NCBI GenBank assembly: GCA_965660855.1
Contig: CBFIBM010000001.1
Location: 288,001 to 352,000 of the forward strand
Length of the DNA stretch: 64,000 bases
Reading direction: 5' to 3'
Source of the DNA: an uncultured bacterium
GTDB lineage: Bacteria > Fidelibacterota > Marinisomatia > Marinisomatales > UBA1611
A program made the position numbers. Shown here in pieces: positions 9,001 to 36,000 of the stretch. Every line of letters begins with the position of its first letter. Position 1 is the first letter of the stretch.

Positions 9001-12000
9001 ATGCGGTGACGTTCAAGATCATACATATAGGCAAGCTGTAACTGCAGCGGGTTCTGGGTGTATGGCGGCTTTAGATGCAGAGAGGTGGTTAGAGACTTAA
9101 TAATTTGATTTTTTCTTGTTCCTAATGGTTTAATACCTAAAGGTAAATAAATGAATCAAACAAAAAGACTTATATTTAAGTTGAGAGGTTTAGAAAAGTC
9201 CCTTGGTAATGAAAACTTTTTGAAAATAAGTAAGTTGGAAGTACATCCTGGTACCATTTATGGTATTGTCGGTACTGTAGGAAGTGGTAAAACAACTTTA
9301 TTAAATATTTTATCTGGTGTTACTTCTCAAACTAGTGGTGCTATGCTCTATGATAATCATCCATATAAGAAAAATTGGTTTGGAAAGTTAAATCCAAATG
9401 ATGATGTTTATTATTCAAAAAATAATAAATTAATAAAATCTAATAAATCGGTTTCTTCTTTTATAAAAAAATACTTTAAAAAAAAGCAAAATACCCTTAA
9501 AAAACGTTATTTTAACGATGGTAGTTTCAAATCTTTATGGTCAAGAAAAATTAGTGATATTTCATCAGCAGAATTGAATTGGTTAGGTACTGTTTTAGCT
9601 TGTGAAGAAGATCCAAGAGTTATGCTCATCGATGATTATGGTATTTTTTTCAGTAGTGACATGGAAAAAGATTTTAGAAATAAAATTTTGAAAATGAATC
9701 GCACCCTTGGAACGACAATAATACTTAGCTCTCCCAGTGATCAGTTTTTAAAACATTTTGTTTCGGTTCTAGTCTATTTAGATCATGGACATATATCAAA
9801 AATAAGACCTGGAATTTCAAGAAAACCAAATCGAAATAATAGGAAAAATAGATCTAATAACTATATCAAAAATTCAAAGAATAAACGCGGACACAAAAAA
9901 AATAAACAGTAATTCTTATTTTGCTAATTATTAATAATGAAATTTAAAGATTTATGAAAATCAATTGTGTTTTTAAATCAATTGTGTTTTCAATCTGTTA
10001 TCTGTATTCACAACCAGATTCTCGCTTCAGGCCATTCGATTGGGTTCTTTATCATGGATCTGGAATAATTAATTCAATTTCCGAGGGATATAACTATGTT
10101 TATGTAGGTACTGAAAATGGTGGTTTGAAAAGATTTAATACATTTAGTTTGAATTTTGATGAGCCGATAACAATGGCCCAAGGTTTAAAAAGCAATAAAA
10201 TAAATGCAGTTCATTTCGATAAAGAAATGGGCTGTCTATGGGCTGCAACACCTAAGTTTTTAAATTATAGTTTTTCTCGTGAAGGTAATTGGTTCTCCAT
10301 CAGTTTAGAATCTTTAGGCTTAAGCAGGTACGAAAAAATAAAAAAAATTGGTTCTTCTACAGGTCATATTTGGTTAAAACTCAATTCCTCCTATATAAAG
10401 TTAAATCATACAAATGGATTCTTGATAGGCACTTATTCTAAACCTGATGAATTATCCATTGATTGGAGTAGTGGTCCTGTATCTTTTGATGCTAAAATTA
10501 AAAAAATATTATTGGAATTCTCATTTTCAGAAGGATGGTTATTTTTAGATAATAGTTTGATTGATAAGCTTGGTAGAAAATTTGATATAACGACATACTT
10601 CCATGCAAGACATGGAAATATCTTTCTGGGTTTAGAAAATGGAATTTTCTTCTATGGAACAGACGTTATGCAAATTTTTAATCCAATAAATCCTGATATT
10701 AATAATTTTGATATTTCAGCACTAGGAAATTTTGAAGATGAATTATTTTTAGGAAGTATTGATTATATTAATTCAAAATCAATTACGCAAATAGATACAT
10801 GGAATGAAAATAAAATATCATTCGACTTTGAAGAAACAATTAACATGACTCCTTTGCCTGTCTTTTCAATAAATGCTTCGAAAAATGAGCTTTGGGTTGG
10901 CGGGGAAGATCTAATGTTATTTTATGATAGAAAAAAAGATTTTTGGCGTACGTTTGGTTTAGAAACTGGGATGCCTTCCGGAAAGATTTTAGATATTAAT
11001 GTTGACAGCTCGTATGTTTGGATAGCTACATCTAGTGGACTAAGTAGAATGTCACGCAAAGATAAAAAAAATGATCTAGTTGGTTTTGAATATTTATTTT
11101 CTGGTATGCCAGTATATCAAGTTAAAAGCCAAAAAAATTTTTTATGGATTGGGGCGTGGTCTGGTATTTATTTATACTCTAAATTATCTCCCCAATTAAA
11201 AAATGGAATGGAGATAGGACAAAGATATTTTGATCAAAAAATTACTCATGTAACAGCCATTAAAGTATCCGATGACTTTGTTTATATTGTGGGTGACCTA
11301 GGTATCGTTAAATATGATTTTGAGTCTTCGGTTTGGGATTTGATATTTAATGCGGGAGTATATAAAAATAAAATGGTTTATAGTATTGATATAAATGGAA
11401 ATAATATTTTTATTGGAACCTCTGATGGAATTACAAAAATAAATGAAAAAACTGGTTTTGTTAAGGAATTTAATTTTCCATTTTTAGAACAGGTTAATGA
11501 TATAATAATTATTGATAATTATCTTTGGGCCGGAACAAATAGCGGACTTATAAAATTTAAATGGAAAACGAGTTTATGAGAACTATTTTACTAGTTATAT
11601 CCTTTCTTATTTTTATCAATGACACTATTCTTGCGCAAAACTTCAATTCAAAAAGCAAAAGAAAAAATAGTGTTGAAAAATATATTCTAGCGCCATTTGT
11701 AGAAGCGATTCATGAAGACTCAATTAAAATAGTTACCTTTGCAGAAATACCATATAGTTCACTACAATTTATTAAAAAAGGGACTAATTATATTGCAAAA
11801 TATCAAGTTACGATTTCACTTAAGCGTAAAAAGGGTGATAATATTTATAATAAGGTCTGGATTGATTCGATGGTGGTTCAAAGTTACGATGATTCTAGAT
11901 CAGTTTTTAAAAATTCAAAGCATCAATTTTCTGTTAATGTAAAAAATAATGGACATTATATCATTACATGTGAGTTGCAGGATTTAGATACTCGAAAAAA

Positions 12001-33000: not shown

Positions 33001-36000
33001 GCTATTTTATAATGGGAAAAATAATATTTTTTTTCTTATTCAATTTTATATTTATTTTTTCAAATGTTGAATATAATCATCCAGAGCTAAACTGGCATTC
33101 ATTTGAAACAGAACATTTTAAAATACATTTTCATGATGAAACTGAAAATACCGCAAGAGAGGCTGCAACTGTTGCAGAGGTAATCTATCCTAAAATAACG
33201 GAATTCTATAATTTTCATCCAAAAGAAAAAACCCATTTAATTCTTATTGATCCAGATGATTACTCAAATGGGGCTGCTTACTATTACGATAACAAAATGC
33301 TGATTTGGGCTTCACCATTAGATTTTGAATTAAGAGGAAGTCACCGCTGGCTTCAAAATGTAATTACACATGAATTTGCTCATATCGTTTCACTGCAAAA
33401 AGCAATGAAGGCTGGGATGTCAATACCAGGTGCATATTTACAGTTCATGAATTATGAAAACGAGAAAAGGCCGGATGTTTTGTATGGATATCCGAATGCT
33501 ATGATAAGCTATCCAATACCTGGCACGGTCGTTCCTCCATGGTTAGCCGAGGGTATTGCTCAATATATGTATGATTCTGCAGATTGGGATAATTGGGATA
33601 GTCACAGGGATATGATTTTAAGGGAGAGAGCTATAAACGGTAATATGTTATCCTTTACAGAAATGAACACATTTGGAAAGAAAGGTATTGGTAATGAATC
33701 GACATATAATGCGGGTTTTGCTCTTTCTACATACATAGCTAATGAATTTGGATCTGATAAAATAATGGAAATAATGGATGAACTTTCAAATCCACTTCAA
33801 TTCTCAATCAATAAAACTTTAGAAAAAGTTCTTAATATTAAAGGTGAAGATTTATTTATTGATTTTCAAAGGTCTATAGAAACAAAATATAATAGATTAG
33901 TTGAGCCAATCATTTTATTCAATGTAAAGGGAAGAGTATTAAATGATATAGGTACAACAAATATATACCCTAAATGGAACCCAAAAAAAAATATGTATTC
34001 TTATTTAAGTAATAAAAATAATGATTTTTTTGGTCAAACAGATTTATTTGTTTACGATTTTGATAATAAAAAAGAAATAAAAATCAAAAGTAATGTTCAT
34101 TCGGCCACAACCTGGAATAGTAATGGAGAGATTCTTTATTTTTCAAAAAAATCCAAGTATCCCAATAAATTTGGATCTAGGTATTATGATATATATTCTT
34201 ATGATTTAAACACCGAGCAAGAAAATCGATTAACAATAGACAAAAGAGCCTTTAGTCCAGTTTTCATAGAAAAAGATAGTTCGATAGCCTTTTTGTCTAC
34301 TTATGATGGAGGTCAAGACCTATATATTCTAGATTTAAAATCTATGACAGATAAAAAAATTACAGATTTTAAAGATAGGCCAATGATTAGTTATCTAGCT
34401 TACAATAAAACTAATAATTCTTTGTTCTTTGATATAACAACACATCACTTTAGAGATATTTATCAATACGACCTAAATAAAAAAGAACTTATCAAAGCCT
34501 TTGAAGATAGTTTTTATGATGAACGTAACTACTCATCGGATTTTTCAGGAAATGAAGTCTTTGCAAAAGATCAGAGTGGTATATATAATCTATTTTATAG
34601 AGAAAATGGTTCTGAAAATGGTGAGTATATTACTAATGTGACTGGTGGTGCATTTATGCCGGATATTTCGAATGATGGAAAAATTTTATTTTCTTTGTAT
34701 GAAGATGGTAAATATAAAATTTCTTTATTAGAAAATATTTCAAAAATTGATGAAAAAAATGTTGGTTATGGCAAGGAATATTTTCTAAATAATTCAAATT
34801 TTAGTGGACCAATCACACAACTAGACACTACAAAATCAAGTCCTTACAAAGATCAATTCCCCAATATGTTCCTCATGCCTAAAATAATGGGAGATTATGG
34901 CACTATAAAACCAGGCTTTTATTTTTACTCTACAGAAATAATTAATAGGCTATCCCTCTTTGGTGGAGCATCAATAAATCAATTAAAAGATGTAGATTTA
35001 TTTTTTATTTTTGATTTTAAACGTTTGTATCCAACTATATTTTTTGAAACATATTTTTTAACTAGGCATACAACAGATAATACAAAGTATAAAAATATCT
35101 ATGATGTTCAGGATGATATAAAATTTAGATTGGTTCAATTTAGGCCTGGCTTGAGGATACCAGTTTATGGGACTTTAATAGAGCTTTCTACTACTCTGCA
35201 ATGGTACAGAGCATTTATACAAGAGGAAGTCCGTACTAACGAATATGGAATTATACAAGCTGGGGCTGCATATGATTATTTTAAAGGAAATTCCTACAAT
35301 TTAAATTGGAGTTTAAACGCAGTTAAAAACACATTAAATAAAACAATCCAACCGACTAATGGATTTTCTTTTCAAGTAATGGCTGATTATGAAAATAATA
35401 AATTTATTGAAGGTCTAAAATTTTCTGATTCAGGAACACTTACTGAAGAATTTGAAGATAATGATCTTGTAAGATTACAATTTTATGGTAGCTATCATCA
35501 TAGATTACCATTTATAGAAAAAGGGTCTATATCTTTAAAAACCAACCTTGGATATATTACAAATAAAAATATTGATTCATTTTTCCATTTTTATTTGGGA
35601 GGTTTACCAGGATTGAAAGGGTACACCTTCTATAGCATCAAAGGTGTTCAGTCAGCTATGATTGATGCAACTTTTCGTTTCCCATTATTTCTTGAAAAGC
35701 ATTATAAGTTTAATTGGCTTATTTTTCAAAATAGTGTAATTGGATTAAATTTCCAAGCTGGAGATGCATGGGGAGAGAAGATAGACAGTATAACACAAAA
35801 CTTTAGTTTGAAAAAATCAATTGGATTGCAGTGGAGAATAAATGGTTTCTCTTTTTATAATTATCCAACAGCAATTGAGTTTGAATATCACCAACCACTT
35901 GATAAATTTAATGATAAAATTAATGGAGAATCAATATCGTATGGAGAAAATGGACGTGCTTATTTTAAAATATTGTTTGATTTTTAGCTCTATTTTATCT

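What a model noticed while it worked through the whole genome (the two positions that open the first line are those of the whole stretch)
9954..35987. A type IX secretion outer-membrane module (SprA, PorU, PorV, PorZ, ~80 cargo) without the GldLM/GldKN motor
The genome encodes SprA (C56, C60), PorU-type C25, PorZ-like and PorX proteins, a core PorV plus seven PorV-family paralogues and 79 proteins with a T9SS C-terminal signal, but no GldL, GldM or GldN; closed relatives are the same. SAR406 appears to run a T9SS without the known proton motor and ring.
Evidence so far: Pfam survey and TIGR04189; SprA over cutoff in 5 of 5 relatives (229); CTD census 79, 64 on contigs C1-C17 (236); GldM 0 of 5 with a positive control (235, 237); GldL over cutoff 0 of 5 (227); GldN 0 of 5 (234); Abby 2016 passages: T9SS only in Bacteroidetes (238).
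(Added by a program. Inside this text positions count along the whole contig: contig position 288,001 is position 1 of the stretch shown here. "Call 12" and the like, gene names such as g00115 and contig names such as C1 are that model's own, and its searches are not shown. The text may have been shortened before it was handed on; [...] marks where a part breaks off. The agent that wrote the report below was given it as the finding of a first reader that could run no searches.)

Follow-up and report, generated by a model that had tools for sequence, protein, structure and literature searches.

The report
Type IX secretion without gliding motor
A widespread group of ocean bacteria (SAR406) keeps the outer-membrane pore, carrier and cargo signals of type IX protein secretion but lacks the proton motor and ring thought to be indispensable, which suggests a simpler, older form of this machine whose energy source is unknown.

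Summary
Largely real, with one correction. SprA passes its cut-off in 151 of 151 genomes of this phylum. GldL, GldM and GldN match in 0 of 151 and GldK passes its cut-off in 0 of 151; Bacteroidia controls ring 5/5, 5/5, 5/5 and 3/3. This genome has 83-84 CTD cargo proteins, a core PorV (in the window), PorU-, PorZ- and PorX-like genes, and an overlooked SprE orthologue (123 of 151).

The correction: this genome does encode a remote GldL/GldM-like pair plus two barrels (contig C3), noted earlier by this scan here and on other DNA. The cassette is in only 13 of 151 genomes, so it cannot be the general SprA motor.

A circular 0.97-Mb relative keeps SprA, SprE, Skp, two PorV-family carriers and four cargoes. 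No GldLM-type pair, PorU, PorZ or PorX was found in it; its only ExbB-family motor is ExbBDD-TonB. In a Bacteroidota sample, 66 of 96 SprA-positive genomes also lack canonical GldL.

Best reading: an ancestral T9SS without the GldKLMN chain, with carrier release motor-free or TonB-driven (inferred). Secretion is not shown. CTD proteins in SAR406 were already reported. New variant; interest 0.68.

The parts
28849..30240 (+). Core PorV carrier barrel (463 aa). The other machine parts lie outside the window: SprE C1:394435-396192; sprA C56/C60; PorU-like C29; PorZ-like C24; PorX C2; Skp C4; GldLM-like cassette C3:135970-141887
   Evidence: PF19572 E 5e-21; NF033709 235 bits over cut-off; same gene order TRAP-porV-bamD-nadD-ftsEX-grpE-dnaJ as the best PorV of G065; covered by contigs of 4 of 4 RNA runs laid, which were found with this stretch
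30253..33012 (+). CTD cargo: M6-like metalloprotease with type A sorting domain
   Evidence: PF18962 at 834-914; NF052323 381 bits, under cut-off 600; TIGR04183 over cut-off
57050..58738 (-). CTD cargo: PNGase F-like protein
   Evidence: PF09113 and PF18962; TIGR04183
58735..60165 (-). CTD cargo: laminin G and dockerin-like domains
   Evidence: PF13385, PF00404, PF18962
9954..11579 (+).
   Evidence: PF21544 only at 468-536; not among the window's CTD hits; orthologue in G065, which has no PorZ
33012..35987 (+). 991-aa protein (peptidase MA-like plus TolB-like propeller) behind the porV cargo; no link to T9SS shown
   Evidence: absent between porV and bamD in G065

Best explanation
A working type IX secretion system without the GldKLMN energy chain, probably the ancestral form. 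SHOWN by sequence: full-length SprA pore, a shortened SprE lipoprotein, a Skp, PorV-family carriers and CTD-tagged cargo; in this genome also PorU-, PorZ- and PorX-like proteins; several PorV paralogues sit directly behind their own CTD protein, in two cases after a TonB-receptor-like gene. INFERRED from F. johnsoniae: cargo crosses the inner membrane by Sec, enters SprA and binds the PorV loops by its CTD without energy. INFERRED, the open step: release of the carrier-cargo complex. My ranking: release without a dedicated motor (weaker binding, made one-way by CTD cleavage and anchoring, or by docking on the cognate receptor) about 45%; pull by ExbBD-TonB about 25%; an unrecognised energiser about 20%; the C3 GldLM-like pair about 10%. 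The C3 cassette is best read as a separate accessory machine working on its own two barrels.
For: SprA 151 of 151, also in 13 of 13 genomes of 0.8-1.1 Mb; G065 SprA aligns to PDB 6h3i over residues 404-1655. GldL, GldM, GldN 0 of 151, GldK 0 of 151 over cut-off, with controls. G065 is circular (19-base terminal overlap, LpxB reads through). A topology scan that finds 33 of 34 true GldL, 32 of 34 true pairs and 14 of 14 cassettes finds no plausible pair in it; profiles of true GldL, GldM and of the cassette also find none. The cassette is complete in 13 of 151 genomes and found in 1 of 6 same-family relatives. SprE-like 123 of 151, 0 of 14 control genomes. 21 SprA rows of this phylum form one clade (support 0.993) apart from Bacteroidia. 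66 of 96 SprA-positive Bacteroidota genomes lack canonical GldL. Substrate loads on the translocon without energy in vitro (PMC10994853, passages and Discussion read).
Against: In F. johnsoniae release needs the motor and SprE (PMC10994853); keeping SprE hints that some coupling step remains. All motor evidence is absence. G177 shows that divergent gldL-gldM-?-gldK runs escape the cut-offs (GldL_N E 3e-4, GldM 38 bits, GldK 165 bits). Only one closed genome was read gene by gene, and it has only 4 cargoes and no PorU. 30 of 139 G065 membrane or secreted proteins scanned have no Pfam family at E 1e-7; 33 shared, 127 unshared and 29 boundary-spanning proteins were not in that scan. This genome itself has the GldLM-like pair, flanked by CTD genes. 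No secretion or protein data. The tree has no outgroup.
Confidence: 0.62

Rival explanations
1. The divergent GldL-like/GldM-like pair on C3 is the T9SS motor, its two barrels replacing the GldKN ring; other genomes use still more divergent copies.
For: Right order and topology: two helices with an invariant Glu and a coiled-coil tail, then one helix plus four Ig-like domains. Profile-profile with true GldL: score 25.1 against decoys 11.4 +/- 2.8, 0 of 100 reach it, Glu in register, probability 63%. GldM: 41.8 against 19.6 +/- 3.8, 0 of 30, probability 45%. PDB GldL 7sax_C at E 0.006. CTD genes flank the cassette here. The family also occurs in 8 SprA-positive, GldL-negative Bacteroidota genomes.
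Against: Complete in 13 of 151 genomes against SprA in 151; an 88-row profile adds no strong hit. Not beside sprA in 20 loci. Absent from circular G065. The TM-only profile has no PDB hit; none of 109 relatives shows PF22827 among the top five Pfam rows. 57 of the 66 SprA-positive, GldL-negative Bacteroidota genomes have neither this family nor the G177 type.
Confidence: 0.13
2. An energiser of a different, unrecognised family (not GldLM, not TonB) is conserved across the phylum and couples to SprE.
For: SprE is kept in 123 of 151 and is needed for release in F. johnsoniae (PMC10994853). 30 of 139 scanned G065 envelope proteins shared with this genome have no family.
Against: No gene with several membrane helices is conserved next to sprA in 20 loci, and no one neighbour is common to all 25 sprE loci read. 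No candidate pair by topology.
Confidence: 0.17
3. SprA no longer secretes here (a general channel or assembly factor), and the CTDs are Ig-like domains of periplasmic proteins.
For: G065 keeps a 6.2-kb sprA for only 4 CTD proteins. The CTDs often score better as FlgD Ig than as Por_Secre_tail.
Against: 83-84 C-terminal CTDs, 65 with an N-terminal hydrophobic stretch, on proteases, lectins and glycosidase-like proteins where scanned; PorV, PorU-like, PorZ-like and SprE all kept; carrier-cargo gene pairs. A CTD xylanase of Rhodothermus marinus is cited as cell-attached (PMC6539836, passage).
Confidence: 0.08

Closest known systems
Type IX secretion system of Bacteroidia (F. johnsoniae SprA-PorV-SprE-SkpA extended translocon, PDB 6H3I, 8GL8; P. 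gingivalis Sov, PorW, PorU-V-Z-Q)
   Same: SprA, SprE, a Skp, PorV family, type A-like CTDs, PorU-, PorZ- and PorX-like proteins.
   Different: No GldK, L, M, N; no PorP/SprF carriers in 3 of 3 genomes tested; SprA about 2,100 against 2,400 aa; SprE 540-710 against about 860 aa; PorV paralogues appear to serve as cognate carriers; sprA lies in an rdgB-sprA-M28 lipoprotein operon.
GldL/GldM (PorL/PorM) proton motor
   Same: The C3 pair has the same order and topology and the TM2 glutamate, with above-decoy profile similarity.
   Different: No family HMM hit; predicted first periplasmic domain is beta-rich; partners read as two outer-membrane barrels, not GldK/GldN; patchy and unlinked to sprA.
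Suspected T9SS of other FCB lineages (Chlorobiota, Ignavibacteriota, Rhodothermota, Gemmatimonadetes, Cloacimonadota, Fibrobacterota)
   Same: Named as possible T9SS carriers in PMC11285876 and PMC5837995; CTD proteins noted in SAR406 (PMC5596340) and Fibrobacter (PMC6851124). My Bacteroidota sample shows the same SprA-without-GldL state.
   Different: The passages I read do not say that the motor and ring are missing or ask what replaces them. McBride and Zhu 2013 was not held; I recall, unverified, that it lists Rhodothermus and Salinibacter as having an incomplete gene set.

Membership tests
T9SS (mandatory set of T9GPred, PMC10515386: GldK, L, M, N, SprA, SprE) | SprA translocon | tested here: met
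   TIGR04189 over cut-off here and in 151 of 151; PDB 6h3i E 3e-51
T9SS | SprE/PorW | tested here: met
   Under the NF052312 cut-off in all 151, but mostly single-copy in 123, 0 of 14 controls; best natural PDB hit is SprE, E 5.8e-32; linked through an over-cut-off SprE of G157
T9SS | Canonical GldL and GldM motor | tested here: not met
   0 of 151 each; controls 5 of 5
T9SS | GldK and GldN ring | tested here: not met
   GldN 0 of 151, control 5 of 5; GldK 0 of 151 over cut-off, 2 partial FGE hits with no gldLMN next to them in the stretches fetched, control 3 of 3 (102)
T9SS | PorV carrier and CTD-tagged cargo | tested here: met
T9SS | Attachment complex PorU/PorZ | tested here: inconclusive
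   Present under cut-off here (NF033707 260 bits on the C25 domain alone; NF052228 168 bits); absent from G065
T9SS | PorG with a C-terminal cysteine; Plug; PorD | tested here: inconclusive
   Only a crude C-terminal cysteine screen: 4 and 2 hits, none convincing, no positive control; Plug and PorD not searched
T9SS | CTD-dependent, proton-driven export | not testable with these tools
   needs a cultured strain
GldL/GldM family (C3 pair) | Match to PF22827 / TIGR03517 | tested here: not met
GldL/GldM family (C3 pair) | Two-helix subunit with TM2 Glu followed by a bitopic four-domain rod | tested here: met
GldL/GldM family (C3 pair) | Remote homology by profile or fold | tested here: inconclusive
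   hhalign 63% and 45%, above all decoys; fold searches give generic Ig matches

The most novel reading that the evidence does not exclude
The original T9SS of the FCB group is a translocon-only machine (SprA, SprE, Skp, PorV) that exports CTD proteins with no rotary motor or track, or with a pull from ExbBD-TonB. The GldKLMN chain and gliding were grafted on later in Bacteroidia, from a wider family of GldLM-type motors that elsewhere drive their own barrels. The 0.97-Mb genome G065 is a natural minimal T9SS.
Probability: 0.5. Interest if true: 0.86.

Novelty: new variant of a known kind. Interest (0 to 1): 0.68.

Why it matters
GldKLMN count as mandatory for T9SS (PMC10515386), release from SprA is held to need the motor (PMC10994853), and a 2025 paper proposes that T9SS arose as part of the gliding machinery (PMC12635249). 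All sampled genomes of this phylum keep the translocon without that chain, and two thirds of the SprA-positive genomes in an evenly drawn Bacteroidota sample lack canonical GldL. If they secrete, the order of events reverses, detection tools miss these systems, and the question of what the energy is for becomes testable in a stripped-down system. It would also explain how an abundant ocean lineage places dozens of enzymes and adhesins on its surface.

Tried and rejected
Window gene 9954-11579 as PorZ: rejected.

A motor next to sprA or sprE: none conserved.

FGE-domain hits as GldK (G000 C5, G050, G125, G263): partial, with no gldLMN neighbours in the stretches read.

Weak hits dropped before counting the cassette: G136 and G013; 61 genomes at E of 8.7e-5 or worse, nearly all on the coiled coil (three touching the TM part, G060, G081, G091, not followed); G207 and G222; G054 has only a 72-aa L-like gene.

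Direct sequence or fold proof that the C3 pair is GldLM: PDB searches negative or weak; Foldseek and VIA give generic Ig domains and GldM is not among the rows listed, which excludes nothing. Complex prediction of 4 L-like and 2 M-like segments gave no answer (score 0.01); it is used neither for nor against.

Plasmid records as positive control: the one sprA record has no gldL.

Tree row L237 was a wrong ORF and spoils the midpoint root. The top SprA hit of G026 is a Bacteroidia-like contig (81% to a Marinoscillum SprA), so that genome's own SprA is unverified.

Literature searches listed no paper on a motor-less T9SS or on SprA in this phylum. The library lacks most subscription papers, McBride and Zhu 2013 was not held, and I read no supplements, where gene tables (for example of PMC4793230 or PMC10515386) may show the pattern.
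Full report
SCOPE. The finding is a whole-genome claim pinned to window 9954-35987. 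The window is G000:C1:288001-352000 of a 2.09-Mb, 81-contig genome, 84% complete. A close homologue of one of its proteins is labelled Candidatus Neomarinimicrobiota, which fits SAR406.

WHAT IS IN THE WINDOW. Most of the stretch is housekeeping: mreBCD-pbp2-rodA, SHMT, a TRAP transporter. T9SS parts are the core porV (28849-30240), the CTD-bearing M6-like protease behind it (30253-33012) and two CTD proteins at 57050-60165. The 541-aa protein at 9954 has a short PorZ_N match but no CTD, and its orthologue persists in a genome without PorZ, so it is not PorZ.

THE OUTER-MEMBRANE MODULE IS REAL. SprA is split over C56 and C60 with the rest in a gap. In an evenly drawn sample of 150 genomes of the phylum (at least 90% complete, 30 families) plus this one, SprA passes the cut-off in 151 of 151; one top hit (G026) is a Bacteroidia-like contig. 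In 20 of 20 loci sprA lies between rdgB and an M28-family lipoprotein; 15 continue with a propeller-plus-CTD protein and PorV-like barrels. My CTD profile finds 83-84 C-terminal hits here against 1 in reversed decoys. There are 14 PorV-family hits; five follow directly on a CTD protein, two of these after a TonB-receptor-like gene (the receptor label is by size and position, not scanned). PorU-like C25 proteins (5), a PorZ candidate on C24, PorX on C2 and a Skp-like protein on C4 are present. A profile of 26 orthologues has F. johnsoniae SprE as its best natural PDB hit, E 5.8e-32 over one long stretch, behind one engineered TPR repeat.

THE CANONICAL MOTOR AND RING ARE NOT FOUND. GldL_N, GldM and GldN: 0 of 151 each. 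GldK: 0 of 151 over the cut-off. The same searches ring over the cut-off in 5 of 5 Bacteroidia genomes for L, M and N and 3 of 3 for K. PorP/SprF is absent from 3 of 3 genomes of this phylum tested and has 4 matches in the control.

BUT THIS GENOME HAS A GLDLM-LIKE PAIR. Earlier notes of this scan pointed to it; a topology scan run after I had seen located it at C3:135970-137817. It is a 132-aa two-helix protein with an invariant TM2 glutamate and a 479-aa bitopic protein modelled as one helix plus four Ig-like domains (pLDDT 81), followed by two proteins that read as outer-membrane barrels (signal peptide, C-terminal pattern; not folded here). Against profiles built from 34 true GldL and 38 full or partial GldM sequences, hhalign gives 63% and 45% probability; scores exceed 100 of 100 and 30 of 30 shuffled decoys, and the glutamate is in register. 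Family HMMs, a TM-only PDB search and fold searches give no specific link. I take it as a probable remote relative, not a member. The decisive point is its spread: complete in 13 of 151 genomes, in 1 of 6 same-family relatives, and an 88-row profile adds no strong hit. It cannot be the general partner of a universal SprA.

A MINIMAL CASE. I read G065 whole (969,550 bp, 1,029 ORFs). It is circular: a 19-base terminal overlap restores full-length LpxB. It keeps a 2,084-aa SprA (PDB 6h3i, E 3e-51), SprE, Skp, two PorV-family carriers and four CTD proteins. It has no C25, PorZ, PorX, FGE/GldK or PorP/SprF hit (in 115 only the CTD end of the PorZ model matches). A scan for a glutamate-bearing helix pair plus bitopic neighbour detects 33 of 34 true GldL, 32 of 34 true pairs, 14 of 14 cassettes and the divergent G177 pair. 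In G065 it returns four proteins, two with a bitopic neighbour, none GldL-like on inspection; in G000 the only pair is C3. The only ExbB/MotA-family gene in G065 sits in an exbB-exbD-exbD-tonB run. Limits: 139 of 172 shared envelope proteins were scanned in Pfam and 30 have no family; 127 unshared ones were not scanned.

NOT SPECIAL TO SAR406. In 121 genomes drawn from the phylum of a Bacteroidia control, SprA passes in 96 and GldL_N in 30, all 30 SprA-positive; 66 have SprA without canonical GldL. Only GldL was surveyed across this sample. Eight of the 66 carry the C3-type family and one (G177) a divergent gldL-gldM-?-gldK run under all cut-offs, a warning that divergent motors can hide. The tool gives no lineage for these genomes. 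A FastTree tree (47 rows, 809 columns, no outgroup, one wrong row) puts eight of them as a grade outside Bacteroidia and the 21 SprA rows of this phylum in one clade with support 0.993. That fits vertical descent, with canonical GldKLMN confined to Bacteroidia.

HOW IT MOST LIKELY WORKS. Cargo loading on SprA-PorV needs no energy; extraction does, in F. johnsoniae (PMC10994853, passages and Discussion). Here the loading half is intact and the pulling half is missing. I rank motor-free release first (about 45%), made one-way by CTD cleavage and anchoring or by docking of carrier-cargo pairs on their cognate receptor; then a pull by ExbBD-TonB (25%), an unknown energiser (20%) and the C3 pair (10%). 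All of this is inference. The retained SprE is the best argument that some coupling remains.

WHAT IS KNOWN. Passages read: T9SS only in Bacteroidetes (PMC4793230, PMC5445135); possible in other FCB phyla (PMC11285876, PMC5837995); CTD proteins in SAR406 bins (PMC5596340), Fibrobacter (PMC6851124) and Rhodothermaceae (PMC6539836); GldKLMN, SprA and SprE as mandatory (PMC10515386); T9SS proposed to have evolved within the gliding machinery (PMC12635249); the cultured member of the phylum is non-motile (PMC11652737); PMC11205867 added nothing. Ten searches listed no paper on a motor-less T9SS. McBride and Zhu 2013 was not held and may already tabulate the gap for Rhodothermus (recalled). No supplements were read.

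VERDICT. By the mandatory-gene definition this is not a canonical T9SS; it works like one on the outer-membrane side. Observation partly confirmed, interpretation partly supported. New variant of a known kind; interest 0.68, held down because the case rests on absence, secretion is unshown and parts were foreshadowed in print.

Noticed in passing
G000 C4:115686-120153 and C9:62423-63974: Two MotA-family genes (PF01618), each beside a gene that reads like MotB; on C4 followed by genes that read like FliF and FliG (labels from recalled motifs). Possibly a motor set without a flagellum; other flagellar genes not searched.
   Followed up: no
L351:2830-7662 (G177): Divergent gldL-like, gldM-like, 309-aa unknown, gldK-like run in a genome whose canonical GldL is under the cut-off; a possible intermediate in motor evolution.
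   Followed up: partly
L035-L054, gene after sprA: An M28-family lipoprotein follows sprA in 20 of 20 loci, even in 1-Mb genomes. Possibly the glutaminyl cyclase of the Q-rule (PMC5837995 calls that enzyme a lipoprotein; family link recalled).
   Followed up: no
L354:14392-15987, L355:13906-15477: A PorX-like response regulator lies directly after sprA in two genomes without canonical GldL.
   Followed up: no
window 19943-23709: Unknown 410-aa protein, BamG-like barrel (NF053685, 96 bits, under cut-off) and TPR protein, in the same order in G065: possibly a Bacteroidota-type BAM accessory set.
   Followed up: no
L036:14037-14864 and 13 relatives: Lipoprotein of the sprA operon with two repeated aspartate-rich Ig-like domains, no family hit; absent from the sprA loci of the smallest genomes.
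   Followed up: partly
L113:8202-9620 (G000 C13): A PilQ/GspD-type secretin under cut-off, followed by a 770-aa unknown protein.
   Followed up: no
L330-L350: In other Bacteroidota lineages the GldL-like family occurs up to three times per genome, often with extra N-terminal helices and different downstream partners.
   Followed up: partly
L005 (G026:C105): A 2.6-kb contig with a Bacteroidia-type sprA inside a genome of this phylum, probably contamination.
   Followed up: yes
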